A stretch of DNA of 63,910 bases from a virus (lineage: Duplodnaviria > Caudoviricetes), in the IMG/VR virus record IMGVR_UViG_3300038548_000456, positions 1 through 63,910 of that record. One strand, 5' to 3'. The position numbers and the translations under genes were made by a program. The notes under the pieces were generated by a model, which saw only the letters and a program-made list of their open reading frames with translations, did no database searches and was not told the origin of the DNA. Shown here piece by piece: positions 25,927 to 44,018 of the stretch (its first letter is position 1; every line of letters begins with the position of its first letter).

Positions 25927-26122
25927 GATGAGTGGTGGAGCATGTGTAATAATTATTGATTCGGCGGCTATATCGGCTACAGTGGATAATATCGGAGTTC
26001 TTGTGAACGAAAAGAAGATCAAGAACAAAGATACGATCAAAGCTGGAGTTTCTTGCCTGAAGAAAGTGAAAGAGGAGTTGGATGAGTTCTTGAACTTAGT
26101 ACAGGAGGAGGATGATGGGTGA
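25901..26122 (+). CDS. Hypothetical protein (start probably at MSGGAC)
   Basis: AGGAG SD. Confidence 0.55.
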   Translation: MKSLNRRNKMSGGACVIIIDSAAISATVDNIGVLVNEKKIKNKDTIKAGVSCLKKVKEELDEFLNLVQEEDDG

Positions 26123-26468
26123 TTTCAAAACAGGAGGCCACTTTGATTCACTGTATGAGGCGGGTGAGAAGATGGGGTTCGCTAGAGGGGGTGCCGTTAA
26201 GGACACTGGTAATATGCCTGCAACTAAAGGAGATAGTCAGCAAGAGATTGAGGCTGGCGGTCGAGCTAAGGTTCGTCCCGGTTACAAGCATGGTGGAAAG
26301 AAAAAGAAGGCAATGAAGGGTGGTCATATGGAATCCAAGGCTCCTCAAAAGATGCCGAAGAACGTTAAAAAGAGAGGAGGTTCTGCGCATGCGTCAAAGT
26401 ACGCACATGGCGGAAAGATGAAGCATGGCGGTCCTTACAACTCAGAGCCGATGTACGGGAAGGATTAA
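26112..26468 (+). CDS. Small basic protein built of xxxGG repeats (putative internal virion protein)
   Basis: FKTGG, FARGG, YKHGG, YAHGG plus related MKGG, KRGG, KHGG. Confidence 0.75.
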   Translation: MMGDFKTGGHFDSLYEAGEKMGFARGGAVKDTGNMPATKGDSQQEIEAGGRAKVRPGYKHGGKKKKAMKGGHMESKAPQKMPKNVKKRGGSAHASKYAHGGKMKHGGPYNSEPMYGKD

Positions 26469-27524
26469 ATGGCAACCTCAGGGACAGTAGCAACAACGGT
26501 CTTTCCAACGAGAAAGGTGATTGATCATGCTTTTCGACGATGCAAGTTGGTGCCGCAACAGATAGCGGGTGAGCCGATCCAAGTAGCGTTGGATCTTCTC
26601 TTCTTAGAACTGTCAGCTCTAGGTAATCGAGGAATTCCTCTGTGGACAGTTGATAAGTTCATTCTACCAGTCTATGAGCGAATTGCTTCTGTGCCTACCC
26701 CAGCGGGAACAATTGATGTCTTTGATGTAAACCTCAGGGAGAATCAGCGGATTGATGGAACTAACTCCTCATCTGAGGGAGTTGCTGATAATGCCTTTGA
26801 TGCTGATCTGAGTACTGCTTGCACACAGACTTCAATTGCAGGCTTCATTCAGATGGAATTGACTTCAAACAACACTGTTCCGATCTATGGTCTCTTGCCT
26901 AATGTCACCGGCACTTGGGACTTCTCGTTTCAATTCTCTGATGATGGGATTACCTTCACGGATATCTTAGCCTTGTCTAGTCAAGCTGTAGTCGCAGGAG
27001 AATGGCTGTGGTTCGATGTAGAAGGTGTTGGTGATCATCTGTTCTGGCGCCTACAAGCGAGCGGCACGACCGTCCTAGACGTCACTGAGCTGGTGTTCCA
27101 GAACACCCCTCAGGAGATACCGTTCTATCAACTTAATCGGACTGACTATAACAACCTTCCTAACAAGACCAGGACGGGAAGGCCTACTCAGTTCTGGTAT
27201 GACAAGGACCGTCAGAATCCGATCTTGACTATTTGGCCCAATCCTGAGCTTCAATTCACCTTTGCACAGATCACTGGGTATCTACATCGTCAAATTCAAG
27301 ATGTAGGAACTATGCAACAAGAGATCGAATGTCCTCAGAGATGGTATTTAGCCGTTGTTCTTCAGTTGGCCAAGCATTTATGCAAGGAGATCAAGGAGGT
27401 CGATCCTGCGTTGATTCCTATAATCGAAGCTGATGCCGCCTGGGAACTCAAAAGAGCCTGGGACGGCGAAGGCGATGGCTCTTCTGCTTTCTTTAGACCC
27501 AACATCAGACCCTATACGGCTTAA
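26469..27524 (+). CDS. Head-tail adaptor / tail tubular protein with inserted beta-sandwich domain
   Basis: NRGIPLWT, DYNNLPNKTRTGRPTQFWYD, IWPNP; insert ADNAFDADLST. Confidence 0.7.
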   Translation: MATSGTVATTVFPTRKVIDHAFRRCKLVPQQIAGEPIQVALDLLFLELSALGNRGIPLWTVDKFILPVYERIASVPTPAGTIDVFDVNLRENQRIDGTNSSSEGVADNAFDADLSTACTQTSIAGFIQMELTSNNTVPIYGLLPNVTGTWDFSFQFSDDGITFTDILALSSQAVVAGEWLWFDVEGVGDHLFWRLQASGTTVLDVTELVFQNTPQEIPFYQLNRTDYNNLPNKTRTGRPTQFWYDKDRQNPILTIWPNPELQFTFAQITGYLHRQIQDVGTMQQEIECPQRWYLAVVLQLAKHLCKEIKEVDPALIPIIEADAAWELKRAWDGEGDGSSAFFRPNIRPYTA

Positions 27525-27526
27525 CC

Positions 27527-27892
27527 ATGTCTATCTTCATTGACACAACTGGTGAATCGAACTTCGGAATAGGTATCTGTGATCGATGTAGTTGCAAATT
27601 TCCTCTCACAAAGCTTTATTCAGATCCAAATACGCCTGGGCTCAAGGTTTGCATAGAGGACCTTGATGATTATGACCCATACCGTCTACCGGCGAGGAAA
27701 ACAGAGAACATCACTCTCCGTTTTGTTCGTCCAGACGTCCCTATTGATGATTTACAAGAAGGGGCAGTTCACCCGGCGTTTGGATTGTTCGGTGTCATCG
27801 TAGCAATTGGCAGCGTGAATCCTCGAATCACTGAAGATGGCAGTATTCGTGTCATGGAAAATCCTTTTCAAGATAACGTGGATATAGGATAA
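27527..27892 (+). CDS. Tail-module protein (CDRC motif)
   Basis: GICDRC...LKVC...D..DP...RPD. Confidence 0.65.
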   Translation: MSIFIDTTGESNFGIGICDRCSCKFPLTKLYSDPNTPGLKVCIEDLDDYDPYRLPARKTENITLRFVRPDVPIDDLQEGAVHPAFGLFGVIVAIGSVNPRITEDGSIRVMENPFQDNVDIG

Positions 27893-27896
27893 CAAA

Positions 27897-29600: not shown

Positions 29601-29615
29601 CTGAGGATTAAGAAA

Positions 29616-29984
29616 ATGGCGACGAAAGCAGAAGTAAAAGAACGCGCGAGTCGCATAGGGATCAATCAGATTGTGACCTACGCGGGACTCGTTCCTATCT
29701 TTTGGTTCATCATTCAGCCCATCCTCGTAAACGCGTTGGCTGAAGAGATGCAGGCGTCGATCAAGCAGACTGTCGCAACTGAGGTCGCTCCGATCAATAA
29801 AGCATTCGTAGCTCTCTTGCAGCGAGACATCAATGCTACGAAGAAGGAGATTGCGGCTCTAGAGTTCCGAGAACGCAGAGACGATGAATGGAGTGAGGAG
29901 GACACTAGCTACTTAGCTGACAAGGAAATAGAGCTAGATGCGCTTGAAGAGGCGAAGGATGCACTCCAGGCGGACACAAGCTGA
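29616..29984 (+). CDS. Membrane-anchored coiled-coil protein (lysis-associated)
   Basis: One TM helix; coupled to the endolysin gene. Confidence 0.6.
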   Translation: MATKAEVKERASRIGINQIVTYAGLVPIFWFIIQPILVNALAEEMQASIKQTVATEVAPINKAFVALLQRDINATKKEIAALEFRERRDDEWSEEDTSYLADKEIELDALEEAKDALQADTS

Positions 29985-30445
29985 TGAACGCGTCGCAACT
30001 TAGAGAGTACATCGTCCGTCCAGCGTTGATGGAGGTAGGATTACATACTCTAGCAGCAGAAGATCTAGTGATGGGAACTGCAGCTCAAGAGTCCCACCTG
30101 AAGTATGTCAAGCAACTGGGGAGCGGTCCGGCTTTGGGTCTCTTTCAAGTTGAACCATTCACCTATAATGACTACTGGGATAACTTCGTGGATGATCGCT
30201 CAGATCTACGTGAGTCAATTTTGCATGCCATACGGACGGAGGGAGAGCCTCGGCCAGATCGAGTTATCTGGGATTTACGATATGCTTCGATTATGTGCAG
30301 AATTCATTATAGGAGAATTCGCAGTCCTCTTCCACAACACGGAGATATCTCAGGATATGCTGCGTATTGGAAGAAGTATTACAATACAATTCATGGATCA
30401 GGAACAGAAGAGGAGTTCATTAAGAACTTCAAGTTAGTCGAATAG
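29984..30445 (+). CDS. Endolysin (lysozyme-like/transglycosylase fold)
   Basis: GTAAQES catalytic Glu, GPALGLFQVEP, YWKKYYNT..G. Confidence 0.75.
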   Translation: MNASQLREYIVRPALMEVGLHTLAAEDLVMGTAAQESHLKYVKQLGSGPALGLFQVEPFTYNDYWDNFVDDRSDLRESILHAIRTEGEPRPDRVIWDLRYASIMCRIHYRRIRSPLPQHGDISGYAAYWKKYYNTIHGSGTEEEFIKNFKLVE

Positions 30446-30455
30446 GAGAGATTTC

Positions 30456-30674
30456 ATGTTAGATAAATTGAAAGGTTTCAAAACAATAGCGTTCAATGTT
30501 CTTATGGGAGCAACGATGCTAATCCGATTCTTTAACCCTGAGACTCAGGTTCCAGACGTTGAAGAAGTAACTGCCGCGGTTGATGCCGTTGGAGCATCAC
30601 TGACTGCAATCTGGGGATTTGGTAACATGTGGTTGAGAGCCATTACCGACTCGCCGATTTTTAAGAAAACATGA
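30456..30674 (+). CDS. Putative holin
   Basis: 72 aa; KGFKT start, two hydrophobic segments, LR..T..PIF end; follows the lysin. Confidence 0.65.
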   Translation: MLDKLKGFKTIAFNVLMGATMLIRFFNPETQVPDVEEVTAAVDAVGASLTAIWGFGNMWLRAITDSPIFKKT

Positions 30675-30699
30675 CTATAACTAAAGAAAGGAGAAAAGA

Positions 30700-31541: not shown

Positions 31542-31545
31542 TACA

Positions 31546-32193: not shown

Positions 32194-32197
32194 AGCC

Positions 32198-33859
32198 ATG
32201 TTTACAGCAGTATTTGGGGGAGCAGTTATTTACCCAGCAGGTCAAAGTTATCTATCTCTGACTTTCTCGGTTAATCAAACTCTTGCATGGCCGATTGAGC
32301 AGCAAGTCGGGGGTAATGTAGTCTCCAGTATCATGGATCTTAATGCTACTGCTTCAAGTCTTACTGTTTCAATTCCTGATGCAAGACAAGTTTCAAATGG
32401 CATTCAATCAGTCTTTAACAACGTTGGAGCTAATTCGATAGACATCCTTGATAGTACTGGAGGAGTCATCGTTTCTGTGGCAGCAGGGGTTGCTCAACTT
32501 GTCTACCTGAGAGATAACAGTACAGCAGCAGGACTCTGGAGGATTTTTCAACTGGGAGCTGGAACTTCAACTGCGGATGCTGCATCTTTAGTAGGAGCTG
32601 GACTTCAAGCTAATGGTTCTACTCTCGAGCAAATTGTTGCACCATCTTCAACAGCTGTCACTCCCATAACTTGGGTAACAGCAGATCGAGCAACCTTAAC
32701 AATCTGGACAGGTGGAGCGGGAGTTCTTAATCTTCCTAGCCCTGGAACAGTTGGATCAAATTGGTTCGCAATGATTCGCAATAGCGGAACAGGTGAACTG
32801 ACGATAACTCCTCCTTCAGGGACTATAGACGGTGCTGCCACTTTAGGATTATCTCAGACCAATTCAGCAGTTATCATTACGGATGGAACAAACTTTTTCA
32901 CAGTAGGTCTTGGTCAAAGTGCTACATTTGAGTTTGACTTTGTTTCAATTGATATCGCCGGCTCGGGCGATTTCACTCTCTCCGGTACTCAGTTAAATCG
33001 GATTTCCTATAATTTTACGGGAGTACTTACTGCCAATAGGACAATCATCGTTCCGGCTACTACACAACAATACTGGCTCGATAACTCGACTACCGGAGCT
33101 TTTTCTTTATTCGCCAAGGTAACTGGTGGATCCACCATTGAAATCCCGCAAGGTGGAAGTATTATTGCTTATTCAAATGGCACAGAACTTATTGATGCAA
33201 CTACGGGAAAGGCATCAGCTGATATTACTCTAATTGCTGGCAATGGAATTGACCCGGCAGGCTTAGGTGATCTTTCAGCTAATCGAACCATCGCTACTCT
33301 ATCAGCAACAGAGAGCGTAGAAGGAACAGCTGAGATTGCTACACAGGCTGAGACTGATGCAGGAACTAATGATGTCACTATTGTCACTCCTCTGAAACTG
33401 GCTACGAATTTGATTGGGGTACTATCTGTTACGAAGATCAAAACAGGGGATACCTCTCGAAATACTGATATTGTCTTATCTGATGATCCTCAGCTTCTTG
33501 GATGGATTTTAGAGGATGATACTCGGTATCTGATTGAAGGTTTTATTGCCTATGTACAAGATGTCGGTAATTTTCAAATGGCGCTTCAGTTCTCTGATGC
33601 ACCACAGGATGCGCTCCTTGATTTTGAAGCTATGGATTCTACAGGAGCAAACATATCTGAGCATACACCAGACGCTACTTCAGCGATGACTATAATTGCA
33701 ATAGTTGATGCAGCAGATGCTGGGATAAACCTGAAGGGGTACATAAGATCAAACGCTGGAACCGGAGGCACGATGGACTTCCAATGGGCGCAGCAAACAT
33801 CTGACGCAAATGATACTACGGTCAAAGAAGGTTCGTGGATAAGGCTTACGAAATCATGA
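32198..33859 (+). CDS. Tail fibre / tail structural protein
   Basis: T/G/S-rich; FTGVLTANRTIIVP, EIATQAETDAGTND...VTPLKL. Confidence 0.7.
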   Translation: MFTAVFGGAVIYPAGQSYLSLTFSVNQTLAWPIEQQVGGNVVSSIMDLNATASSLTVSIPDARQVSNGIQSVFNNVGANSIDILDSTGGVIVSVAAGVAQLVYLRDNSTAAGLWRIFQLGAGTSTADAASLVGAGLQANGSTLEQIVAPSSTAVTPITWVTADRATLTIWTGGAGVLNLPSPGTVGSNWFAMIRNSGTGELTITPPSGTIDGAATLGLSQTNSAVIITDGTNFFTVGLGQSATFEFDFVSIDIAGSGDFTLSGTQLNRISYNFTGVLTANRTIIVPATTQQYWLDNSTTGAFSLFAKVTGGSTIEIPQGGSIIAYSNGTELIDATTGKASADITLIAGNGIDPAGLGDLSANRTIATLSATESVEGTAEIATQAETDAGTNDVTIVTPLKLATNLIGVLSVTKIKTGDTSRNTDIVLSDDPQLLGWILEDDTRYLIEGFIAYVQDVGNFQMALQFSDAPQDALLDFEAMDSTGANISEHTPDATSAMTIIAIVDAADAGINLKGYIRSNAGTGGTMDFQWAQQTSDANDTTVKEGSWIRLTKS

Positions 33860-35367
33860 GCGAACTCCCTGTCAAAATACAATCTGCTCCTGGTATCAAA
33901 AGGGATGGCACACGTCTTGAAGGAGACAATTATGTTGACGGACAGTGGTGTCGATTCCAGCGTGGAAGACCTCGCAAGATAGGAGGTTATTCTTCTACCA
34001 CTAATGTCATCCCTGAGTTAGCCAGAGGAATGGGCGCTTTTTCTGAAGACGGTCAGAACTTTGTTCATATTGGACAAGAGTCGAGTTTGCAACAGGCTGT
34101 TATTAATAACAGCACTGGCAATCTGTCTATCTTAAATGATCGATCTCCCGGAGGACTTGTAAATAGCGTAAACAACTTGTGGCAATTCGATGTTTTCTTT
34201 GATCAGGTAACTCCATCCAATCAATTGATTGCTCACGCAGGTCAGAATCTTACAGACATCGATAGCTCGGTTGCTACTGAAGTTTTCTTTGGTCCCCCTT
34301 CTGCAGCAACAGTTCTGGCAGGCACAGGAAAATCAGTTAGTGGAGGAGTAATTGCATTAGGTCCCTTCTTATTCGTTTACGGAAGTGACGGATTGATCAG
34401 CTATAGTACTGTGAATGATCCTCAGGGGGTTTATACTGATGCTTTCATTACTCCTCAAAAAGTTGTTAAAGGACTTCCACTGCGAGGAGCTGGTCAAGGC
34501 CCCGCTGGTTTATTCTGGTCACTCGATTCTCTGGTGCGTGCAACCTTTACTGGGGGAGCTACAGTTTGGAATTTTGATACTTTAACTTCTGAGACTTCAA
34601 TTCTCTCCTCTCAGGGAGTTATTGAATATGATGGAATCTATTATTGGGCTGGAGTAGATAGATTCTTAATGTTCAATGGTGTTGTTCGAGATTTGCCCAA
34701 TCCTATGAACGTCAATCATTTCTTTGATAATTTAAACTTCGCTCAGAGGCAGAAAGTCTTTGCTTACAAAGTTCCTCGGTTTGGGGAGATCTGGTGGTGT
34801 TATCCCCGTGACAATGCAACTGAGTGTACACACGCGGTTATTTACAATGTGATTGAACAGACCTGGTATGATACCGAGCTTCCTGATGAAGGTAGGACAG
34901 CGGGTATCTTCGCTAAGGTATACAATAAACCCTTCCTGGTAGACAACACGGTTAGTTCATCGTCTGGGTTTACGCTATGGCAACATGAGACCGGAACTGA
35001 TAAACTAGTAGGAAGCACAGCTAATGCCGTTGCTTCATTTTTCGAGACAGCGGAGATCTCAATGCTGACCGCTGAGCAATCAATGAGTAAATCTTTACAT
35101 GTTGCTAGGATAGAACCTGATTTTGTACAAACTGGAGATATGACGGTTATAGTAAGAGGAAGAGTCAATGCACGAGCTCCGATTCTTGATGGAGAAACAT
35201 TTACTTTCAATGATGATGCTACAACTGGAGATGAGGAAACTGTAAAGCTTAAAGAAGTGAAACGATTGATGAGCTTTAGATTTGAATCTAATGTGGCTGG
35301 AGGAGACTATGAGTTTGGAGAAACTTTTGCTCATATCGAACCCGCGGATGGAAGGGTTGAATCGTGA
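33856..35367 (+). CDS. Tail nozzle / DNA-stabilisation protein (P22 gp10-like)
   Basis: PGIKRDGT, RFQRGRPRKIGG, FGEIWWCYP, YNVIEQTWY, RIEPDF; propeller-like. Confidence 0.75.
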   Translation: MSELPVKIQSAPGIKRDGTRLEGDNYVDGQWCRFQRGRPRKIGGYSSTTNVIPELARGMGAFSEDGQNFVHIGQESSLQQAVINNSTGNLSILNDRSPGGLVNSVNNLWQFDVFFDQVTPSNQLIAHAGQNLTDIDSSVATEVFFGPPSAATVLAGTGKSVSGGVIALGPFLFVYGSDGLISYSTVNDPQGVYTDAFITPQKVVKGLPLRGAGQGPAGLFWSLDSLVRATFTGGATVWNFDTLTSETSILSSQGVIEYDGIYYWAGVDRFLMFNGVVRDLPNPMNVNHFFDNLNFAQRQKVFAYKVPRFGEIWWCYPRDNATECTHAVIYNVIEQTWYDTELPDEGRTAGIFAKVYNKPFLVDNTVSSSSGFTLWQHETGTDKLVGSTANAVASFFETAEISMLTAEQSMSKSLHVARIEPDFVQTGDMTVIVRGRVNARAPILDGETFTFNDDATTGDEETVKLKEVKRLMSFRFESNVAGGDYEFGETFAHIEPADGRVES

Positions 35368-35863: not shown

Positions 35864-35872
35864 GATGATGAT

Positions 35873-37735
35873 ATGAGTGGGTTAGGATATGCAAAGGGCG
35901 GAGAAATAAGAACTCCTCAAGAATTCTTCGCAGGGATGGAAGAGATCACTTCGGTTCCCGGCGGATCAGAGATGTTGATGAGTGCATTGGCTGAGCAAAT
36001 GACTGGTAAGAAACAATCTGGAGTCAAGAATCTTCGATTGTACAAGATGGGAGGTTCTGTCAATTATGCTGAAGGTGGCTTAGCAGCGGCAGAAGAAGTC
36101 CGAGGCATGGGGCGAGGAGATGATGAGATCTTACTTCATGTCTCTCCTGAAGAATATGAAGCTCTTACTGGAATGTGGGGAGAGCCAGATATTAATCCCA
36201 ACACAGGAATGCCTGAGTATGGTTTTCTGTCTAAACTTTGGAAGAAAGTCAAAGGAGTTGTAAAGAAGATTGTCAAGAGTCCCATCTTTCAATTTATAGC
36301 TCCAATTGCTTTGAATGCCTTCATCCCTGGAGCAGGATCAGCTCTAGGTGGTGCTCTAGGTCTTGGAGGAAAAGCTGCCACAGTAGTTGGTAATACTCTT
36401 ATTCGCTCAGGAATCGGCGCAGCAGGAGGAGGTAAAGAAGGCGCTCTCTCTGGTGCAATTTCAGGACTAACTGGAGGAGGAGCAGGATTAAGCCTTGGAA
36501 AGACTCTAGGATTAACAGGTCGAGCTGCTGAAATGGCTGGCAATGCGCTTATCGGAGGAGCAGGTGGGACGATAGGTGGAGGAGGCTTCGCTCAAGGTGC
36601 TCTCGGAAACGTAATAAACGCCGAAGCGATGAGAGCTTTACAACCTCTTGAGACAGGGATCGGAAAAGGCCTGAAGAACATCTTCGCTCCTGGCACTGGA
36701 GGGATGAGCATGGTAACCTCTGGAACTGGAGAGATGAGTCCTGTAGGACAACCTGACATCTTTGGAGGAACTCCAGGTGGTGCTATTGACATGTCTCCCA
36801 TTCCGGGGTCAGGGGCACTAACTCAATTAGGAACTCCCACCTCCGGTAACTTTCTCACCCGAGGTTGGGATTGGCTAAAAGAAAACCCTGAATTGGCTTT
36901 GGCAGGAGCAGGAGTATTAGGAAGCCTAAGAGGAAGTGGTGAACCTGATGGTCCTCCCGCAGGTGGAGGAGGAGATTTTGGAGGACCTATTCCTGAGTAT
37001 GCTTTAGATCGAACTCGACAGACCATGGATCCTAATGCCTATTATACTTATGGACAAACTGGATCAGAACAACCAGGTGAGTTTCAATTCTGGGGAAATA
37101 ACACCGCAGGAACGCCAACAGCCCCTCCAACTTCAGGAGGAGGCGCGGATCTGTCTCAAGAAGATCTTCAGTCTATGATGGCTCGACTGTCATCGATGAG
37201 TGGAGGCTTCGCAGAGGGAGGTCACTCCAAGGGCGGAGGATCAGGACGTGATGATACCATTGAAGCATTACTATCTGACGGCGAATATGTAATGGATGCT
37301 GAGACTGTCTCTTTATTAGGAGACGGTAGTAATGATCATGGAGCAGCACGTCTTGACGAAATGAGAGAAGCACTGCGCAAGCATAAAGGAAAAGGTCTTG
37401 CGCGAGGAAAGTTCTCGGCAGACGCTAAACGTCCACTAGATTATATGGAAGGAGGTAGAGCTGCTTATGCTGGAGGAGGCAAGGTTAGACAATTAAAGAA
37501 GATGGCAAGAAAGATGGATAGAATGTTAGCAGAAGAAGTTCCAGATAAAGAGATCCGAGAAATACAAGCAGCTATGAATAGACTTCAGAGAGGATCAGTC
37601 AAGAGGGCTTTGGATGCCGTCAATTCTGGGGAAGATGCAGCAAGTGCCTTTCGAGAGAAGAAAGCTCGGGGCGGTAGAGTAAAAAATCAAATGTTAGCAA
37701 GGCGAATGAGAGTGCTCGCTAGAGGAGAAACATAA
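35873..37735 (+). CDS. Putative internal virion/ejection protein
   Basis: Gly-rich hydrophobic core, six [FY]xxGG motifs, GSGRDDTIEALLSDGEYV module. Confidence 0.75.
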   Translation: MSGLGYAKGGEIRTPQEFFAGMEEITSVPGGSEMLMSALAEQMTGKKQSGVKNLRLYKMGGSVNYAEGGLAAAEEVRGMGRGDDEILLHVSPEEYEALTGMWGEPDINPNTGMPEYGFLSKLWKKVKGVVKKIVKSPIFQFIAPIALNAFIPGAGSALGGALGLGGKAATVVGNTLIRSGIGAAGGGKEGALSGAISGLTGGGAGLSLGKTLGLTGRAAEMAGNALIGGAGGTIGGGGFAQGALGNVINAEAMRALQPLETGIGKGLKNIFAPGTGGMSMVTSGTGEMSPVGQPDIFGGTPGGAIDMSPIPGSGALTQLGTPTSGNFLTRGWDWLKENPELALAGAGVLGSLRGSGEPDGPPAGGGGDFGGPIPEYALDRTRQTMDPNAYYTYGQTGSEQPGEFQFWGNNTAGTPTAPPTSGGGADLSQEDLQSMMARLSSMSGGFAEGGHSKGGGSGRDDTIEALLSDGEYVMDAETVSLLGDGSNDHGAARLDEMREALRKHKGKGLARGKFSADAKRPLDYMEGGRAAYAGGGKVRQLKKMARKMDRMLAEEVPDKEIREIQAAMNRLQRGSVKRALDAVNSGEDAASAFREKKARGGRVKNQMLARRMRVLARGET

Positions 37736-38622
37736 TGCCAGGTGTACTAGACTTTCTGTTTGAAGGCAGGCCACCCTCTTCCGTTACGACTTACGGAGAA
37801 ACAGTCGAGAACATTCCAAAGTGGCTGTCTGATTATACGCAGGGACTGATTGGACGTGCTAATGTCATAGCAGCTGAGCCCTATCAAGAGTATGGAGGTC
37901 CTCGCATATCGGGATGGGCTCCTGAGCAGCTTGAAGCCTTTGAATCAGGGCGGGAGAATATTGGAGCCTGGCAGCCGGGGATAGAAACTGCTGGGGGATT
38001 GACTCAAGCGGGAGCGGCCTCATTCCCTGGTCAGGTTGGAGAGTACATGGATCCATACATCGGAAATGTACTGGATCGACAAGCTGAGCTTTCTCAAAGA
38101 CAACTCACAGAACAATTCATTCCTGAGCTTCAAAGTGCTTTTGTTGGATCTGGCTCATTCGGTGGTGATCGAATGATGGATCTTGGTATTCGAGGAACTC
38201 GAGATATTGCTGAGGGATTACAAGGACAACAACTTGGAGCTCTATCTCAGGCATACGGACAAGCCGGACAATTGTTTCAACAAGACAGAGCTCGCGAATT
38301 GGCAGGGGGACAACAGATGGGAGCTCTTGCAGAGGCAGAACAAGCAATGCTGGGAAGAGATGTCGCAGGACTCGAAGCAATTGGGGCACAACAGAGAGGC
38401 ATGGGCCAACAGAGTCTGGATCTGGCTTATCAAGACTTTCAACAACAGCGTGACTATCCACGATCACAAGTTGATTGGATGTCAAATATTGTTCGAGGTC
38501 TTCCAAGCTCGACTCAGACAACTACTTCTCAGACCGGACCGGCAGATATTTATGGTCCCTCTCCGCTATCTCAGATAGCCTCATTGTACTCAACTTACCG
38601 CGGTCTACAACCGGGAGAATAA
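37735..38622 (+). CDS. Putative DNA ejection/pilot protein
   Basis: Q/G/A-rich; YMDPYI..V, FGGDR, IGAQQR..QQSLD.AYQDF. Confidence 0.7.
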   Translation: MPGVLDFLFEGRPPSSVTTYGETVENIPKWLSDYTQGLIGRANVIAAEPYQEYGGPRISGWAPEQLEAFESGRENIGAWQPGIETAGGLTQAGAASFPGQVGEYMDPYIGNVLDRQAELSQRQLTEQFIPELQSAFVGSGSFGGDRMMDLGIRGTRDIAEGLQGQQLGALSQAYGQAGQLFQQDRARELAGGQQMGALAEAEQAMLGRDVAGLEAIGAQQRGMGQQSLDLAYQDFQQQRDYPRSQVDWMSNIVRGLPSSTQTTTSQTGPADIYGPSPLSQIASLYSTYRGLQPGE

Positions 38623-38623
38623 G

Positions 38624-41332
38624 ATGGCAGGTTATCAAGAAGGCGGCTTAGCTGCGGCAATCGGCGCTCCTGATGAAGAAGAGGAAGAAACTCAGGTAAA
38701 CCAGATTCAACAGCTTCAGGCTGGACAACAAGGCTTCGATGTTGAAGAGTTTATAGGAAGATATGAAGAAACAGCTGAGCAATCCCGTCAAGCTCTTAGA
38801 GATGCTCGAGAGAAAGTTTTAGCAAGAGAGTATGATCCTCGTCAGATGTGGTTGGCTGCGGCTGCTGCGTTTGGTAAACCTACTCGGACGGGACAGTTTG
38901 GAGAAACTCTGGGTAATCTAGCTGGAGCCTTACAACCTGAGTTCGCAGCTCGAGATGAGTTCGGTCGAGCAAAAGAAGAACAAATCCTAAGTCTTGATCA
39001 AGCTCTTTCAGGAGTCGATCGAGGTATGCTGGGTAGCGAACTCAAGTTAAGACAACTACAAGAGTCTCAAAGACTATCCAGACAAGAGTTAGACTTCAAG
39101 CTGCAAGAACGTCGTGACAAGGAGATGAAGCAGAATCTAACTCACGAAGCAGGTATGCGGAAAGAATTCAACACTCTCCTGAAAGATTATGAGAAAGTCT
39201 CTGATGCTTATGGACGAGTTCAGTCTGCTGCGAAAAATCCCTCTGCTGCTGGCGATCTGGCAATGATCTTCAACTTTATGAAAATGTTGGATCCAGGTTC
39301 CACAGTACGAGAAGGCGAATTTGCAACTGCTGCCGCAACAGCCGGTGTCCCTGGTCGAATCGTAACTCTCTATAATAACATGTTAAGAGGTGAACGATTG
39401 AATCCAGAGCAACGGCTTGACTTCTTGAATCAGGCTGTAGGCTTATATGGAACTGCCAAAGAAGGAGCTCAACTCAAAGCAGATGCATACAGAGCTCTAG
39501 CCATTCGTAATGAATTGGATCCTGAGGACATCACAGCAGTTTTTGACAATGCTTACAATAGATTTGATGCCCCATCGCAAAAGATCATGGTTAATATGCC
39601 TGATGGAGGAAGCTTCGAAGTATCCCAGAGTCTCGTGGATGCAGGCGACAAGAAAGAAATTGTTCGTCTTTATGAAGAGCACAAACAGAAACAAGGTTTT
39701 GCTGAGGGAGGGAAGGTTAAAAAGAAATTCCAAGAGGGAGGCACTGTCAACTTTGATGAGATTGAAGACGAGACTCTCGATCTGGAAGAGATTGGAGTTG
39801 AAGAGGAAGATATCGATATTGAACAAATTCTTCAATCACTGGGAGGAGCAGCAGCAGGTGCGGCAGTAGGTCCTTTAGCTATATCGGCTGAGCAGAGATT
39901 AGCTGAGATGGCACAGCCTCAACTTACTTCAGGAAGACCAGCTGAGCGAAAGATTGTCGAAGCTATGGAGATGAGCGGTACAGATCCTGCTACTGTAATG
40001 CAAGATGTTCGTCGTGGGCAACGACTTGGAGTTCCTGAGACACCTCTGGACGTTGGAGGTAGAATGACTCGAGTGCTGGGTGAGAAAGCTTTGATTGCTG
40101 GAGGACCAGAAGCAGAACAAGTCTTGTCTGAGCTAGGAGAGCGGCATGAAGGAAGTCGAGCTCGAGTAGAGGAACAAGTTAGTCGGAGATTCAAGACACC
40201 TGAGTATTTTGCTACTGAGGATAAACTTACCGAGAGACTTTATGAAAGAGCTAGACCCGCTTATGAGAAAGCCTGGTCTGAGAATCCAGCTCTTGATCAT
40301 CCTCCTTTCTGGAAGAAGATGGTTGACAATAAGTATGGTGAGCAGGCTGTTCACATGGCTCTCGACTTTATGGACGACATTGAACAAGAGCCTATCGGTA
40401 AGAAGAACATCGCAGGTTGGGTAGAACGTCCTAGCTTGAAATTCTTAGATCAAGTGAAGCGAGGGTTTGATCAACTCATTCGTAAGGAAGAGAACATGGG
40501 AGCCACTCCTCTTGGTCGACATCTTCGAGGAATGAGAAAGACTCTCGTGACTTGGTTAGATGATCCTAAGAACACTACTCCTGCTTATTCAGCTGCTCGA
40601 AAGCAATACAAAGGAGATCTAGAAATTCTCGAGGCTTTGGACACTGGTCGAAAACAGTATCTGAGGATGCCAACAGAAGAAGCGAAGCGTATGCTTCAAG
40701 GAATGCCCTGGGCAGAGAAGAACGCGCTGCGTGCTGGCGTTACTCAGCGTCTGTATGAGCAGCTAGATACTCCTACTTCAGATATCAATGCAGCTAGGAA
40801 AATCTTGGGCTCTCCAGGCGTCTCAGATAAACTGGCGTTATTGTTCGACAAGCCGAAAGATTTTGAAGTATTCAAAGCAGCTCTGCGTCGGGAGATGGAA
40901 CTCTTCCAAGAAGGTAAGAAGACACTTGGTCGAGCAGAACGAGGTCGAACCTCTCGAATGACTAAGGAGCTGACGTCTCAAGATGAATTCACTCCTGGTG
41001 CTGTACTAAAAACAGCGAGGGCTATTCGACCAGTTGAATGGTTCATGAAGTTCATTGACAGAAAAGACTTTAGACTAAGTGCTACAGAAGCTGATGAGAT
41101 TATCAAGATTCTGAACGAGGGGGACAATGCAGAACTTCAGAAGTTAGAACAGAGACTTACTCAGGTTGCTGCTTCTCGTAAACGTAAAGCTGCTCCAATT
41201 AGAAAGAAAGGCAGAGCTGCAGCAGCTGGTGCATTACTCGGAGGAATCGGTACATTCTTAATGACTGGAGAGGATGAAGAAGAAGAGATTAACATGGAAG
41301 AGATCGGTCAACTGCTCGAGGGACAGCAGTAA
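38624..41332 (+). CDS. Large internal virion/ejection protein
   Basis: 902 aa helical; KMLDPGSTVREGEF motif; three [FY]xxGG motifs; hydrophobic segment near the C-terminus. Confidence 0.75.
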   Translation: MAGYQEGGLAAAIGAPDEEEEETQVNQIQQLQAGQQGFDVEEFIGRYEETAEQSRQALRDAREKVLAREYDPRQMWLAAAAAFGKPTRTGQFGETLGNLAGALQPEFAARDEFGRAKEEQILSLDQALSGVDRGMLGSELKLRQLQESQRLSRQELDFKLQERRDKEMKQNLTHEAGMRKEFNTLLKDYEKVSDAYGRVQSAAKNPSAAGDLAMIFNFMKMLDPGSTVREGEFATAAATAGVPGRIVTLYNNMLRGERLNPEQRLDFLNQAVGLYGTAKEGAQLKADAYRALAIRNELDPEDITAVFDNAYNRFDAPSQKIMVNMPDGGSFEVSQSLVDAGDKKEIVRLYEEHKQKQGFAEGGKVKKKFQEGGTVNFDEIEDETLDLEEIGVEEEDIDIEQILQSLGGAAAGAAVGPLAISAEQRLAEMAQPQLTSGRPAERKIVEAMEMSGTDPATVMQDVRRGQRLGVPETPLDVGGRMTRVLGEKALIAGGPEAEQVLSELGERHEGSRARVEEQVSRRFKTPEYFATEDKLTERLYERARPAYEKAWSENPALDHPPFWKKMVDNKYGEQAVHMALDFMDDIEQEPIGKKNIAGWVERPSLKFLDQVKRGFDQLIRKEENMGATPLGRHLRGMRKTLVTWLDDPKNTTPAYSAARKQYKGDLEILEALDTGRKQYLRMPTEEAKRMLQGMPWAEKNALRAGVTQRLYEQLDTPTSDINAARKILGSPGVSDKLALLFDKPKDFEVFKAALRREMELFQEGKKTLGRAERGRTSRMTKELTSQDEFTPGAVLKTARAIRPVEWFMKFIDRKDFRLSATEADEIIKILNEGDNAELQKLEQRLTQVAASRKRKAAPIRKKGRAAAAGALLGGIGTFLMTGEDEEEEINMEEIGQLLEGQQ

Positions 41333-43152
41333 TGCCTAAAGCTAAGTCCTTATTGAAAGCTGGTCCTTCTCTTCATGAGGCAGCAAGAGAAGCCATTCAG
41401 AGGGGAGATACTACTGAGGCTCTTGCTTTATTGAGACAATTACAAGAGTTGCTTCAGTTAAGTGATGATGAATTTAGTAAGATGATGGGACAACAACATT
41501 CAGCTCCTCCTGCTAAAACTGTACCAGTCAATCCTCTTGATGAGATCTACGATCCTGAGACTCCAATAGGTGGATACAAACATGAGTTTGCTGAGGGAGG
41601 ATCTGCCAAGAAAGATGAGCGTCCTGCTAGAAGCCTTCTGAAAGCTCTGATGTCTTCATTAGGAGGAGCTATTCCTTTCGTTGGTGAAGAAGGTGCATTA
41701 GTTGGTCAGGACGTTGGCGAACGAATGTACGAGCTTGGAGCGTATCCCATCGCCGGACTTAAATCTCAGTGGTACGGAGTTGATCCGACCACTGGTGAAT
41801 TTGAATATGCAGGTCCAGGCTCAGGTCCAGCTTATCCTGATCCGGCTCTTGCGATGTATGACATGGAAGAGTATCGTCGTCAGTTGGATGCATGGAAAGC
41901 TGCTCAAGAACAAACTGGAGCTATCCCCGGGATCATCGATGAGACAGCTGCACTTCCTCTACTAGGAGGAATGGTAGGAGTCCCCACTCCTGAATTTGCA
42001 GAAACTGCTGGACTTAGAACTGAGGAGAACTGGGCAAAGTCTCTTGAATCATTGGGACTCGAGGAACCTGAAGGATTGGTTGAGAACACTTTGCTGGCTG
42101 GGGGGATGATGCTGGGTCAGTTGCCTATTCCCCTAGCTTGGGCCAATAGAGTTAAGCCGGTCGGAGGATGGCTCAAACGAGTAGCAGGAGCCACACCGAG
42201 ATTCGGTATGGAATTCTTATCTCCCATCATCGAGCCTAAAGTTGCTAACTACATCGGCGGTGCTCTGTTTGGTGGAGGTCTGATGACCATGCTTGAGCCC
42301 GGTGATATTCCTCCAGACATTGAAGAACTAGTCAAGCGAGCGAGAGAGGGTGACGAAGAAGCCTATGAGCAATTGAAGGTTCTCTACGAAGAGTACCAGG
42401 CTCAGCAAGAAGTTACAACGTCTGAGGAAGAAGGCGCACTTAGTCAGATGGAGAGATCGGTAAGGTTTGGTTATGCAGGCGGAGGTAAAGTCAAAGGTCT
42501 AACTCGTCGAGGATTCCTGAAAGGATTAGGAGCGACAATCACAACTGCTATGGGAGCAGGGAAGGCAGCACGTCATGCTGAGATTACTCCTCGACTGAAA
42601 GAGATTGAAGAAGCGATCATGCCAGCGCGTCATGCTGTCAAGAAATCTATTCCTCATCTACAATCTGTTTCGGATTACCTTAGACGTGAAGCTGACAATG
42701 TGATGAGAGATATGCAGGATGACATCACTCGAGCAGCTGATAAGGATTCGATGCAATGGAAAGTTGAAGATCATCCTGATATGGATATGTACGAGATGTT
42801 TACAGGTGATGCTGACGACTATGACATTATTGTCAAATCTCTTGAAGAGGGAGATGTTGAATCGGCTGTCAAATATTACGACAATCTAGATACGGCTTCT
42901 CGAGAATCTATTTATGACTTCTTAGAACATGACAAGTTGCTTGATGTTCGAGAGATGTTCGCCAGAGGCAAGAGCGACTATGAATATATTCCACTCGAGC
43001 GACACCCTGAGTATGATGCGATTATTAAGAAAGCTGAATCGCTAAGAGAGCTTCGGGATCCTGATGATGATTGGTTTATTCGGAAGGCTATGGATCTAGA
43101 GAATGAAGGTTACAGTGGTCAAGATCTAATCAAGTTTATGGAGAATAGATAA
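41332..43152 (+). CDS. Putative internal virion protein with an internal twin-arginine motif
   Basis: FAEGG; YAGGGKVKGLTRRGFLK. Confidence 0.7.
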   Translation: MPKAKSLLKAGPSLHEAAREAIQRGDTTEALALLRQLQELLQLSDDEFSKMMGQQHSAPPAKTVPVNPLDEIYDPETPIGGYKHEFAEGGSAKKDERPARSLLKALMSSLGGAIPFVGEEGALVGQDVGERMYELGAYPIAGLKSQWYGVDPTTGEFEYAGPGSGPAYPDPALAMYDMEEYRRQLDAWKAAQEQTGAIPGIIDETAALPLLGGMVGVPTPEFAETAGLRTEENWAKSLESLGLEEPEGLVENTLLAGGMMLGQLPIPLAWANRVKPVGGWLKRVAGATPRFGMEFLSPIIEPKVANYIGGALFGGGLMTMLEPGDIPPDIEELVKRAREGDEEAYEQLKVLYEEYQAQQEVTTSEEEGALSQMERSVRFGYAGGGKVKGLTRRGFLKGLGATITTAMGAGKAARHAEITPRLKEIEEAIMPARHAVKKSIPHLQSVSDYLRREADNVMRDMQDDITRAADKDSMQWKVEDHPDMDMYEMFTGDADDYDIIVKSLEEGDVESAVKYYDNLDTASRESIYDFLEHDKLLDVREMFARGKSDYEYIPLERHPEYDAIIKKAESLRELRDPDDDWFIRKAMDLENEGYSGQDLIKFMENR

Positions 43153-44018
43153 TGCCTAGTGAAACACCCAAACAAGCTCGATTCATGGCCGCTGCAGCGC
43201 ATAATCCAAAATTCGCTAAGCGTGTGGGAATCAAGCCTAAGGTAGCTAAAGAATTTAATCGTGCCGATACTGGCACCAAACTGTTGAGTAAAGCAATGAA
43301 GAGACAAAGATATCAAGGTGGTGGATTAGCTCAAGCAGGTATGCGAGTACGAAGACCTCAGCAAGGACGAGGAATGATTCCGCCCCTAGGAGGTGGCCTA
43401 CAGCAGGCTGTCAAACCTCAGATAGATCCGCGGTCGAGAATGATGGGGACGACTCCGCCCCAGCGAACGATGGTTCCTCCGAATATGAGACCGCCTGGCG
43501 CCACGACAGGTCCTGTAGGGCCTCAGCAGATTCCGCCTGGTGTTCGACCAGGAACAGGCGCGCTTGGACAATACGCAGGAGCTGGTGGACGCTCAGGCGC
43601 CTTTAGACGTCCTCAGCAGCTCGCAGATGGACAAAATCGCTTTATGGGCAGACGACCAATGGGTGGAGCGCCAAACGGCCTGCTAAGGACAGCTCAGAGC
43701 GTCTCGCCGAACTATGGCGATAGGCTACAGGGTATGAATCGCCGTCTTCAATTCGCCAAGGGCGGGAAGGTGAAGCGAGCTATCGCAGCTTTACAACGAG
43801 CCAGGGTGGATCTTCAGGACAGTGATCCTAGCTTTGAGCTAATTGCTAGCGCACTCGGAAAGGATGTTCCCAACGCTGGAGGCATTGCTGCTGCCATTCG
43901 AGCGACTGCTAAGAAAAAACCCAAAACTGGCGCACCTGATGAGTTTCGCGCTGACTGGCAAAGTATCAATAAGAAGCTTGATGCTTTGGAAGAAGCTATA
44001 AGCAAAGCTGGAGATTAG
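43152..44018 (+). CDS. Putative internal virion protein
   Basis: MPSETPKQARFMAAAAHNPKFAK N-domain, P/G/Q-rich middle, YQGGG and FAKGG. Confidence 0.7.
   Translation: MPSETPKQARFMAAAAHNPKFAKRVGIKPKVAKEFNRADTGTKLLSKAMKRQRYQGGGLAQAGMRVRRPQQGRGMIPPLGGGLQQAVKPQIDPRSRMMGTTPPQRTMVPPNMRPPGATTGPVGPQQIPPGVRPGTGALGQYAGAGGRSGAFRRPQQLADGQNRFMGRRPMGGAPNGLLRTAQSVSPNYGDRLQGMNRRLQFAKGGKVKRAIAALQRARVDLQDSDPSFELIASALGKDVPNAGGIAAAIRATAKKKPKTGAPDEFRADWQSINKKLDALEEAISKAGD

What the first reader, a model, noticed from the sequence alone, without database searches (positions are those of the whole stretch)
26112..44018. [FY]xxGG motif repeated 17 times in five putative internal virion proteins: candidate polyprotein-processing or capsid-loading signal
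Seen: 26112 (FKTGG, FARGG, YKHGG, YAHGG); 35873 (YAKGG, YKMGG, YAEGG, FAEGG, YMEGG, YAGGG); 38624 (YQEGG, FAEGG, FQEGG); 41332 (FAEGG, YAGGG); 43152 (YQGGG, FAKGG). Most are followed by x[VILA], and they sit at N-termini or at boundaries between compositionally different segments. The 118-aa protein is little more than a string of them. Established: di-glycine cleavage matures adenovirus and ASFV core proteins, and T4 internal proteins use a short capsid-targeting sequence. Inference: these ORFs are cargo polyproteins, cut at or packaged via this motif. I could not recognise a prohead protease, so the enzyme or receptor would be uncharacterised. I recall similar motifs in other uncultured phages but no assigned function.
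Basis: partly seen in the sequence, partly recalled or inferred. Interest (0 to 1): 0.8.

Follow-up and report, generated by a model that had tools for sequence, protein, structure and literature searches.

The report
Aromatic-Gly-Gly cap motif on phage ejection proteins
A short [Phe/Tyr]-x-x-Gly-Gly peptide really is repeated far beyond chance in the proteins this short-tailed phage probably shoots into its host, and it turns out to be the end-piece of a very widespread but unstudied module that also sits in the tail tape-measure proteins of long-tailed phages; what it does is still untested.

Summary
Shuffling the five proteins gives 2.1 on average (maximum 8 in 2,000). F/Y sits at -3 of 17 of 67 GG pairs, against 0-6 at every other offset.

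The window is a whole 63.9-kb podophage contig. Four of the five proteins lie in the ejection-protein block after the nozzle gene. The fifth is a small basic protein next to an adaptor gene.

Relatives keep the motif: 42 of 76 aligned ortholog sites, with core columns 0.76 conserved against 0.39 for the flanks. It concentrates at protein ends and at points where modules are inserted.

New here: the motif is the "cap" of a cap-box-cap module. The box is G-x-G-x-G-R-x-D-x-I-x-A-x-L-S-x-G-E-Y-V. A profile of it finds 23,172 protein clusters. The best-scoring hits include giant tape measure proteins that carry 4-6 copies, in two cases flanking lysozyme-type domains. This phage's clade has multiplied the cap alone.

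No protease was found, and the adenovirus-type consensus is not met. Some caps lie two residues from a C-terminus.

Cleavage and capsid loading both remain untested. My best guess (about 0.4) is a pairing or association element at module ends of proteins expelled through the tail.

The parts
26112..26468 (+). g118: 118-aa basic, Gly-rich protein (24 K+R, 11 D+E) with 4 caps, directly upstream of the adaptor-like gene 26469-27524
   Evidence: In MCP-anchored relatives, 31 of 39 distinct ORFs at the same position carry at least one cap, 80 caps in all.
26124..26138 (+). cap FKTGG (g118 residue 5)
   Evidence: Kept in 2 of 2 aligned orthologs.
26178..26192 (+). cap FARGG (g118 residue 23)
   Evidence: Kept in 0 of 2 orthologs.
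26283..26297 (+). cap YKHGG (g118 residue 58)
   Evidence: Kept in 1 of 2 orthologs.
26400..26414 (+). cap YAHGG (g118 residue 97)
   Evidence: Kept in 0 of 2 orthologs.
35873..37735 (+). g620: first large ejection-block protein, with a Gly-rich hydrophobic centre and 6 caps. The family has 523 unnamed proteins.
35888..35902 (+). cap YAKGG (g620 residue 6, N-terminal)
   Evidence: Kept in 6 of 7 orthologs. In L007, L011 and L015 a 220-250-aa N-terminal extension ends at this cap.
36041..36055 (+). cap YKMGG (g620 residue 57)
   Evidence: Kept in 4 of 7 orthologs.
36065..36247 (+). N-terminal module of g620: cap YAEGG (residue 65) followed by GRGDDEILLHVSPEEYEAL...WGEPDINPNTG
   Evidence: Cap kept in 7 of 7 orthologs. 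Alignment A6 of 14 sequences has the GG invariant. Likeness to the C-terminal box is only suggestive: BLASTP E 0.57; hhalign E 0.0067, probability 5.7%.
37208..37222 (+). cap FAEGG (g620 residue 446), upstream cap of the box
   Evidence: Kept in 7 of 7 orthologs. AF2 pLDDT is below 50 here.
37223..37441 (+). box: GGGSGRDDTIEALLSDGEYVMDAETVSLLGDGS... This is the best conserved part of the family and the part matched by tape-measure PHROGs.
   Evidence: PHROGs 6090, 25241, 5448 and 3547 match residues 433-545. Invariant columns are in A4 and A5. The profile finds 23,172 clusters.
37442..37456 (+). cap YMEGG (g620 residue 524), downstream cap of the box
   Evidence: The seven orthologs have Y-[ML]-x-x-G-G or similar here, so 0 of 7 match exactly. 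Distant relatives end Y-L-M-G-G-R-A-stop at this point.
37466..37480 (+). cap YAGGG (g620 residue 532); start of a clade-specific C-terminal extension
37735..38622 (+). g295: ejection-block protein with no cap in the window. Orthologs in L011, L012 and L025 carry a cap 12-38 residues from their C-terminus.
38624..41332 (+). g902: ejection protein. Residues 165-308 resemble Mx8 and P22-type 'DNA transfer protein'. It has 3 caps.
38633..38647 (+). cap YQEGG (g902 residue 4, N-terminal)
   Evidence: Kept in 5 of 6 orthologs.
39698..39712 (+). cap FAEGG (g902 residue 359)
   Evidence: Kept in 1 of 6 orthologs. Others keep x-K/R-G-G-R-V without the aromatic residue.
39728..39742 (+). cap FQEGG (g902 residue 369), between the two halves of g902
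   Evidence: Kept in 6 of 6 orthologs. In L007 a roughly 170-aa insertion just before it is flanked by YAGGG and FAGGG.
41332..43152 (+). g606: ejection-block protein with 2 caps. Only residues 8-359 have relatives.
41587..41601 (+). cap FAEGG (g606 residue 86)
   Evidence: Kept in 0 of 3 orthologs.
42472..42486 (+). cap YAGGG (g606 residue 381), at the start of an orphan C-terminal module
43152..44018 (+). g288: last protein of the block. Its N-terminal 50 residues match 'virion structural protein' PHROGs. It has 2 caps.
43311..43325 (+). cap YQGGG (g288 residue 54)
   Evidence: Kept in 2 of 2 orthologs.
43752..43766 (+). cap FAKGG (g288 residue 201)
   Evidence: Kept in 1 of 1 aligned ortholog. 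In L010 a roughly 100-aa insertion follows it and ends at a-R-G-G-S-V.
33835..35367 (+). nozzle protein, the anchor that precedes the ejection block
   Evidence: PDB sequence matches to 8zkk/8zkm 'nozzle gp16' and to 9nwi_Y. 462 relatives in IMG/VR.

Best explanation
Shown:
- [FY]-x-x-G-G, usually followed by x-[VA], is a conserved short linear motif that sits in flexible stretches. It lies at the ends and internal module junctions of this podophage's ejection-block proteins and of a small basic protein beside the adaptor gene.
- It is the 'cap' of a cap-box-cap module. The box is G-x-G-x-G-[RT]-x-D-x-I-x-A-x-L-S-x-G-E-[YF]-V.
- That module is shared with tail tape measure proteins of long-tailed phages. 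There it occurs in several copies and, in two of seven proteins scanned, brackets lysozyme-type domains.
- In this phage's clade the cap alone has been multiplied.

Inferred mechanism: the caps are short strand-turn elements that pair with one another, within a chain or between chains. Pairing would close each module so that its two ends lie together, and would bundle the proteins that must be stored compactly and then expelled in order through the tail channel. On this reading the proteins are not cut at the cap, and the cap needs no dedicated receptor or enzyme gene.
For: Reality and specificity:
- 17 observed against 2.15 expected; F/Y at -3 of GG in 17 of 67, against 0-6 at all other offsets.

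Conservation:
- 42 of 76 aligned ortholog sites keep a cap. The F/Y, G, G columns are 0.76 conserved against 0.39 for the flanks.
- Downstream-of-nozzle ORFs in 81 related loci hold 2.19 caps per 1,000 aa, against 0.59 elsewhere.
- 119 g620-family proteins hold 253 caps, against 82.7 +/- 8.9 on shuffling.

Ends and junctions:
- The decile histogram of 182 sites is 43 24 10 11 10 6 9 9 29 31.
- Extensions and insertions in L007, L010, L011, L013 and L015, and in g606, start or stop at caps.

The cap belongs to a module:
- Tape-measure PHROGs match g620 residues 433-545.
- The cap-plus-box profile finds 23,172 clusters, and the best-scoring hits are 1,871-5,284-aa proteins with 4-6 copies.
- Of 7 scanned, 3 carry Pfam TMP_3 and 1 carries PhageMin_Tail.
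- Of 182 boxes, 89 have a cap within 25 aa upstream (chance about 8%), 105 have one within 70 aa downstream (chance about 20%), and 57 have both.
- Cultured examples: the EBPR siphovirus 1 tape measure protein has FASGG-box-FAEGG. The Mycobacterium phage Homura one has YANGG-box-FADGG followed by a DCSG stretch that I read as NlpC/P60-like.

Against a need for cleavage or a dedicated partner:
- Many relatives end Y-L-M-G-G-R-A-stop or A-Y-L-K-G-A-A-stop.
- No peptidase family was found in 88 ORFs.
- Caulobacter phage GB2A has the same head and ejection gene order but only 1 cap in its ejection block.

Flexibility:
- AF2 pLDDT is below 50 around the cap at residue 446.
Against: - Cap-to-cap pairing has not been observed. 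The AF2 model of g620 residues 425-620 does not pair the caps that flank the box, and it is of low confidence (mean pLDDT 66.8).
- Only about half of the boxes in the top hits have an aromatic cap.
- 14 of the 17 window sites are caps without a box, so extending a role from the module to lone caps is an inference.
- The junction pattern is equally what cleavage sites in a polyprotein would give.
- Processing of tape measure proteins by unknown proteases is described as common (PMC1796659, passages; T5 preprint 10.1101/2022.09.20.507954, passages).
- The ortholog sets are small (2-7 sequences per protein), and related loci are not independent.
Confidence: 0.4

Rival explanations
1. Maturation cleavage site. 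The ejection-block proteins, and tape measure proteins, are modular precursors cut at or next to GG. The cut would release or separate modules, and the protease would be unrecognised, host-encoded or built into the module.
For: - Caps sit at module junctions and near termini.
- Three proteins start M-x(2-4)-[FY]xxGG.
- g118 would give a basic 38-aa peptide between two caps.
- In tape measure proteins the modules flank SLT and lysozyme domains.
- Processing of tape measure proteins is called common and its enzymes unknown (PMC1796659, passages). T5 pb2 is cut between a hydrophobic stretch and its peptidase motif (preprint passages).
- In g606 a cut after the cap at residue 381 would expose a TAT-like stretch, RRGFLKGLGA (Pfam TAT_signal 19.2 bits, below the 22.7 cut-off).
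- An earlier scan note on another phage (e1-5872930, unchecked) proposed border motifs as cutting sites.
Against: - No peptidase family was found in 88 ORFs, nor with PHROGs or NCBIfam.
- The six ejection-block proteins have no Cys and no HExxH.
- g194 gave no protease-like fold match.
- The [MIL]xGG adenain-type consensus is not enriched: 13 of 67 against 10.9 expected.
- Conserved C-terminal caps lie 2 residues from the stop codon.
- The module occurs from actinobacterial to proteobacterial phages, so no single host protease could serve.
- No conserved Ser/Thr/Cys nucleophile precedes the box Asp in the window's family.
Confidence: 0.25
2. Capsid-loading signal. The caps are multivalent docking peptides that bind portal, scaffold or the inner capsid surface and so load the proteins into the procapsid, like the T4 capsid targeting sequence or encapsulin cargo peptides.
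For: - Terminal position and several copies per protein.
- Basic residues often follow the cap (KVK, KVR), and the scaffold has a very acidic N-terminus.
- In the distant relative Pa223, an ejection protein sits around the portal perimeter (preprint 10.1101/2025.06.11.659172, passages).
- The capsid protein is far more conserved than its neighbours (median 78% against 36-54%), as a common receptor could be.
Against: - The same cap-box-cap module is in tape measure proteins, which are built into tails and not capsids.
- GB2A has the same head genes but only 1 cap in its ejection block.
- No partner has been identified.
Confidence: 0.15
3. Envelope-binding element that acts after ejection. The cap, or the whole module, binds peptidoglycan or membrane and holds the expelled proteins and their wall-degrading domains in place.
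For: - The module is shared by the two classes of proteins that are expelled into the cell envelope, and it flanks lysozyme, SLT and NlpC/P60-like domains, much as wall-binding repeats flank lysins.
- An aromatic residue followed by basic residues suits binding to anionic surfaces.
Against: - No likeness to any known wall-binding family was found in Pfam at E up to 10 on six motif-bearing segments of the five proteins.
- The module is found with both Gram-positive and Gram-negative hosts, whose envelopes differ.
Confidence: 0.15
4. Chance or a by-product of glycine-rich composition.
For: The carriers are Gly-rich (8.5-19.5% Gly).
Against: - 0 of 2,000 shuffles reach 17.
- The excess is specific to offset -3.
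- Caps are conserved at aligned sites while the flanks diverge.
- The excess recurs in 119 family members.
Confidence: 0.02

Closest known systems
C-terminal conserved region of tail tape measure proteins (PHROGs 6090, 25241, 5448, 3547; proteins with Pfam TMP_3 or PhageMin_Tail)
   Same: g620 residues 433-545 match these PHROGs. The cap-plus-box profile retrieves tape measure proteins with 4-6 copies. Cultured examples show cap-box-cap.
   Different: Here the carrier is a podophage ejection protein, and 14 of the 17 caps stand alone without a box. The module has no Pfam or NCBIfam model that matches, and I found no paper that contains its sequence strings.
T4 capsid targeting sequence with gp21 cleavage (L/I-x-E), as recalled
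   Same: A short N-terminal peptide shared by several internal proteins. Three carriers here start with the cap.
   Different: Most caps are internal or C-terminal, no prohead protease was found, the sequence is different, and the motif also occurs in tail proteins.
Adenovirus protease and ASFV pS273R Gly-Gly processing of core proteins, consensus as recalled
   Same: Gly-Gly next to module borders in proteins stored with the genome, including a small basic protein.
   Different: The hydrophobic residue is aromatic and one position further from GG. [MIL]xGG is not enriched, and no cysteine protease is encoded or recognisable.
Encapsulin cargo-loading peptides, as recalled
   Same: Short Gly-containing terminal peptides on cargo of an HK97-fold shell, sometimes in several copies on disordered stretches.
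   Different: No binding to the capsid protein is shown, and the same motif occurs in tail proteins.
Ejection proteins of Bruynoghevirus Pa223 (gp53, gp54, gp56) and P22 gp7/gp16/gp20
   Same: Gene block behind a homologous nozzle gene. g902 shares a domain with P22-type DNA transfer proteins.
   Different: P22- and Mx8-like relatives fetched here show no cap excess. The passages of the Pa223 preprint that I read report no such motif.

Membership tests
Tape-measure-type cap-box-cap module | Box G-x-G-x-G-[RT]-x-D-x-I-x-A-x-L-S-x-G-E-[YF]-V | tested here: met
   g620 residues 455-478. Invariant columns are in A4 and A5. Tape-measure PHROG matches have E 6.8e-8 to 4.6e-4.
Tape-measure-type cap-box-cap module | [FY]xxGG within about 25 aa upstream and again within about 70 aa downstream of the box | tested here: met
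   FAEGG at 446, and YMEGG/YAGGG at 524/532. In 182 boxes of the top hits, 89 have an upstream cap, 105 a downstream cap and 57 both.
Tape-measure-type cap-box-cap module | All 17 sites are parts of full modules | tested here: not met
   Only sites 446, 524 and 532 flank a box. Site 65 heads a possibly related N-terminal module (hhalign probability 5.7%). The remaining 13 are caps alone.
Adenain / pS273R-type Gly-Gly processing | Consensus with an aliphatic residue two positions before GG ([MIL]xGG) | tested here: not met
   13 of 67 GG against 10.9 expected. The excess is aromatic and at -3.
Adenain / pS273R-type Gly-Gly processing | Virus-encoded clan CE cysteine protease | tested here: inconclusive
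   No peptidase family with Pfam on 88 ORFs, PHROGs on 41 or NCBIfam on 11. Many ORFs have no recognisable family, so a divergent enzyme is not excluded.
Adenain / pS273R-type Gly-Gly processing | Cleavage after GG in virions | not testable with these tools
   Needs virion proteomics.
T4-type capsid targeting sequence | N-terminal targeting peptide removed by a prohead protease | tested here: inconclusive
   3 of 17 sites are N-terminal. No prohead protease was recognised. Removal cannot be tested here.
Double-glycine leader / C39 peptidase | C39 peptidase domain, and a leader with hydrophobic residues at -4, -7 and -12 | tested here: inconclusive
   No C39 match in Pfam. g194 has invariant H63, C65 and H132, but its model shows a small sheet plus a long helix with no clear fold match.
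Encapsulin-type cargo-loading peptide | Peptide binds the inner face of the HK97-fold shell protein | not testable with these tools
   No result that bears on binding was obtained here. It needs structures or binding assays.
Podophage ejection (internal virion) proteins | Gene block after the tail nozzle; likeness to known ejection proteins; presence in virions | tested here: inconclusive
   Position and partial likeness are met for g620, g295, g902, g606 and g288. Presence in virions is not testable. g118 lies elsewhere.

The most novel reading that the evidence does not exclude
The cap is the cutting point, and the box is a self-processing or protease-recruiting element. Together they would form a maturation system shared by tape measure proteins and podophage ejection proteins. 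That would explain the long-known processing of tape measure proteins for which no enzyme has been found, and it would make these proteins true polyproteins whose enzyme cargo is set free in the cell envelope.
Probability: 0.12. Interest if true: 0.85.

Novelty: new variant of a known kind. Interest (0 to 1): 0.6.

Why it matters
Ejection proteins and tape measure proteins are the least understood parts of tailed-phage particles. How they are stored, kept in order and released is largely unknown. A short motif and module shared by both classes, present in more than 23,000 protein clusters and without any database model or paper that I could find, gives a concrete handle. It can be mutated in tractable phages that carry it in their tape measure protein, such as mycobacteriophages of Mycobacterium smegmatis. 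The result would show whether these proteins are cut, docked or zipped together. It also offers a sequence marker for finding ejection proteins in uncultured podophages.

Tried and rejected
- **Co-folding.** I co-folded g118 as partner with the capsid protein (A2), the scaffold (A3) and g194 (A1). The score was 0.00 and the tool gave no verdict. This says nothing either way.
- **g194 (17846-18430) as a hidden cysteine protease.** It has invariant H63, C65, W66 and H132. The AF2 model (pLDDT 76) is a small sheet plus a long helix. Foldseek gave no match at E <= 0.001, and the wide VIA search gave a best Z of 5.0 on the helix only. There is no support for a protease, but the small domain was hardly tested.
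- **Scaffold and atlas look-ups**. The 325-aa protein looks scaffold-like (nearest named cluster 0.87, coiled-coil matches). Nothing emerged for g194.
- **PDB sequence searches.** Searches with g620, g902, the capsid protein and the putative portal found nothing useful.
- **GroES mobile-loop mimicry.** The phage's GroES-like protein has VTEGGILIP. I dropped the idea because the caps lack the hydrophobic triplet after GG.
- **RTX-like repeats.** L013 has four caps spaced 8-9 aa apart. I dropped the idea because the pattern does not fit GGxGxD.
- **Zincin or autoprotease in the ejection proteins.** No HExxH and no Cys.
- **Internal duplication in g620** (N module against C module). BLASTP E 0.57 and hhalign probability 5.7%. 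Not established.
- **Stand-alone relatives of the g606 C-terminal module.** None among proteins of 129-412 aa.
- **Literature.** Pentapeptide strings occurred in 127 papers; none of the 30 listed concerned phage internal proteins by title. Box strings occurred in 0 papers. The phiRIO-1 paper reports no processing in that phage (passages).
- **Earlier scan notes.** Nothing for this genome or sequence.
- **P22- and Mx8-like loci L001-L004.** No cap excess.

Full report
**What the window is.** The window is a whole contig of 63,910 bases. It has the layout of a short-tailed phage.
- The + strand carries a large terminase (11364-12956) and an 864-aa protein in the portal position.
- Next come a GroES-like protein, a coiled-coil scaffold-like protein, and a capsid protein of the Mu gpT type (19048-19977).
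- Then follow fibre-like proteins, two adaptor-type genes, and a 510-aa protein (33835-35367). That protein matches solved 'nozzle' chains 8zkk/8zkm and chain 9nwi_Y of Pseudomonas phage Pa223.
- Behind the nozzle lie 35873-44018. After that the strand switches to a replication block.
- The closest cultured relatives by the nozzle protein are Caulobacter phages GB2A, RW, RLK and KcrB (49% identity), with the same gene order.

**The observation.** All 17 [FY]xxGG sites are present as listed.
- All other non-overlapping ORFs of 50 aa or more together hold five.
- Shuffling the five proteins gives 2.15 on average. The maximum is 8, and 0 of 2,000 shuffles reach 17.
- Of 67 GG pairs, 17 have F or Y three residues before (3.6 expected, p 7e-8). 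At all other offsets from -7 to +7 the count is 0-6.
- 13 of 17 sites have V, I, L or A two residues after GG.

**Are the carriers internal virion proteins?**
- g902 residues 165-308 match a virion protein of Myxococcus phage Mx8 and regions annotated 'DNA transfer protein' in P22-like phages.
- g295 weakly matches a 'DNA ejection protein' PHROG (E 3e-4). The first 50 residues of g288 match 'virion structural protein' PHROGs.
- In the distant relative Pa223 the ejection proteins are encoded in the corresponding place, and one of them was seen around the portal (preprint 10.1101/2025.06.11.659172, passages).
- The label 'ejection block' is thus reasonable for four carriers, but presence in particles is not shown.
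- g118 lies elsewhere, directly before the adaptor-like gene 26469-27524.

**Conservation in relatives.**
- In 81 loci anchored on the nozzle gene, + strand ORFs downstream of it hold 184 caps in 83,960 aa (2.19 per 1,000 aa; 13.2% of GG). Other ORFs hold 131 in 221,446 aa (0.59 per 1,000 aa; 5.0% of GG). The loci are related, redundancy was not removed, and a few downstream ORFs were counted as 'other'.
- In alignments with the closest orthologs, 42 of 76 aligned sites keep a cap. The F/Y, G, G columns are 0.76 conserved against 0.39 for the 24 flanking positions.
- Eight of the 17 sites are kept in two thirds or more of their orthologs. The others are lineage-specific. This is the turnover expected of short linear motifs.
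- The ORF at the g118 position in capsid-anchored loci is a very variable, basic protein. 31 of 39 distinct ones carry at least one cap, 80 caps in all.
- Cap density falls with distance: window about 4.8 per 1,000 aa, nearest relatives 2.1-5.0 (L012 and L011 are the lowest at 2.1-2.2), distant ones 0.8-2.5, GB2A 0.5.
- Still more distant phages keep a few typical caps. Pelagibacter phage HTVC027P gp84 starts MKTLRRPMFRKGG. An uncultured phage's ORF before the adaptor gene ends FKKGGKVNW-stop.

**Position.**
- Caps pile up at both ends of proteins. The decile counts of 182 sites are 43 24 10 11 10 6 9 9 29 31.
- Length differences between orthologs begin or end at caps:
  - a 220-250-aa N-terminal extension in L007, L011 and L015 ends at the N-terminal cap of g620;
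  - a roughly 170-aa insertion in the L007 ortholog of g902 is flanked by YAGGG and FAGGG;
  - a roughly 100-aa insertion in the L010 ortholog of g288 follows FAKGG;
  - the orphan C-terminal part of g606 begins with YAGGG.
- An AF2 model of g620 residues 425-620 has pLDDT below 50 around the cap at 446 and is mostly helical afterwards.

**The module.** The best conserved part of the g620 family is a box, G-x-G-x-G-R-x-D-x-I-x-A-x-L-S-D-G-E-Y-V...L-G-D-G-S.
- It is the part matched by four tape-measure PHROGs.
- It is preceded by a cap and followed by another. In many distant relatives the protein ends Y-L-M-G-G-R-A-stop, or A-Y-L-K-G-A-A-stop in the largest subgroup.
- A 76-position profile of cap plus box, searched against 1.84 billion representatives, finds 23,172 proteins at E <= 0.001, 5,860 at <= 1e-10 and 263 at <= 1e-30.
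- The best-scoring hits are proteins of 1,871-5,284 aa with 4-6 copies. Of seven scanned with Pfam, three carry TMP_3 and one carries PhageMin_Tail.
- In P0124 an SLT domain lies between two copies, and in P0149 a phage lysozyme domain does the same.
- In the 145 newly fetched proteins among the 150 listed hits I found 182 boxes:
  - 89 have [FY]xxGG within 25 aa upstream (chance about 8%), most often with 14 residues from F/Y to the S-D of the box;
  - 105 have one within 70 aa downstream (chance about 20%);
  - 57 have both.
- Cultured examples: the EBPR siphovirus 1 tape measure protein reads FASGG-box-FAEGG. The Mycobacterium phage Homura one reads YANGG-box-FADGG and runs straight into a DCSG stretch that I read as NlpC/P60-like; no family scan was run on it.
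- A tblastn with P0149 finds 382 phage records, mostly tape measure genes.
- No Pfam or NCBIfam model matches the module in g620, and none of six heptapeptide strings of the box's L-S-x-G-E-[FY]-V core (three copied from outputs, three variants of my own) is found in the searchable library.
- An earlier, unchecked note of this scan on another phage (e1-5347541) described a tape-measure end module on four podophage proteins. My result agrees with it and adds the cap.
- g620 may hold a second, N-terminal copy (cap at 65 plus GRGDDEILLHVSPEEY). The statistics are weak: BLASTP E 0.57; hhalign E 0.0067, probability 5.7%.

**What it does.** Nothing here shows function. I weigh four readings.

(a) *Pairing or association element (0.4).*
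- Caps bracket modules in both protein classes.
- They occur at the free ends of neighbouring proteins.
- No dedicated partner or enzyme gene stands out.
- They are conserved even two residues from a C-terminus.
- They are dispensable in GB2A, which has the same head genes.
- Paired strand-turn elements that close modules and bundle expelled proteins would fit all of this, but pairing has not been seen.

(b) *Cleavage site (0.25).*
- The junction pattern, the N-terminal caps and the reported frequent processing of tape measure proteins fit (PMC1796659 passages; T5 preprint passages).
- Against it:
  - no peptidase family was found in 88 ORFs;
  - the ejection block has no Cys and no HExxH;
  - [MIL]xGG is not enriched;
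  - some caps sit at the C-terminal end;
  - the host range of the module excludes one host enzyme.

(c) *Capsid-loading signal (0.15).* This is weakened because tape measure proteins carry the same module.

(d) *Envelope binding after ejection (0.15).* This is suggested by the flanking of wall-degrading domains and is untested.

Chance is excluded.

**Novelty.** The motif as such, and the cap-box-cap module, appear undescribed. Their kind (short terminal or junction peptides on phage internal proteins) has precedents, so I rate this a new variant of a known kind. The supplements of the papers cited were not read. The T5 cleavage site is given only in a figure that I could not see, so I could not compare it with the cap.

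Noticed in passing
window 42487-42576 (g606 residues 386-415): Directly after the cap YAGGG comes KVKGLTRRGFLKGLGATITTAMGAGKAARH, a close match to a twin-arginine export signal (Pfam TAT_signal 19.2 bits, below the 22.7 cut-off). It lies in the middle of a 606-aa protein. An in-frame ATG lies at 42448. The 235-aa part after it has no relatives of 129-412 aa.
   Followed up: partly
window 35873-44018: The six proteins of the ejection block (2,829 aa including g118) contain no cysteine at all.
   Followed up: no
window 16383-16826: A GroES-like gene (Pfam Cpn10 30.5 bits; mobile-loop-like VTEGGILIP) sits in the head module. It has a BLAST match in 54 of 80 capsid-anchored loci.
   Followed up: partly
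window 19048-19977: The capsid protein is far more conserved among relatives (76-96% identity) than its neighbours (medians 36-60%). It also carries an invariant Y-x-x-G-G-V-L at residues 70-76.
   Followed up: partly
window 17846-18430: A conserved 194-aa head-module protein with invariant H63, C65, W66, D74, R79 and H132. The model shows a small sheet plus a long helix, with no clear fold match.
   Followed up: yes
window 50106-56495 (- strand): A family A DNA polymerase with an N-terminal uracil-DNA-glycosylase-superfamily domain lies beside a dCMP deaminase, a weak thymidylate-synthase-like gene, a PRA-PH (MazG-like) gene and a P-loop kinase-like gene. This hints at altered nucleotide metabolism or base modification.
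   Followed up: no
window 43152-43300, and g118-position ORFs of L100, L112, L118, L121 and others: Two small basic domains recur in these variable proteins. One is the N-terminal 50 residues of g288 (PHROG 16759). The other, in relatives of g118, is a stretch KVM-x-E-F/Y-K-x-G-x-L-H-S-G-S-K-K-G-P-x-V-K-N-P-K-Q-A.
   Followed up: no
window 44955-45419 and 53258-53614 (- strand): Two HNH homing-endonuclease-type genes sit inside the replication block.
   Followed up: no
window 13248-15842: The 864-aa protein in the portal position matches no PHROG, Pfam, NCBIfam or PDB sequence, although it has a BLAST match in 64 of 80 loci.
   Followed up: partly
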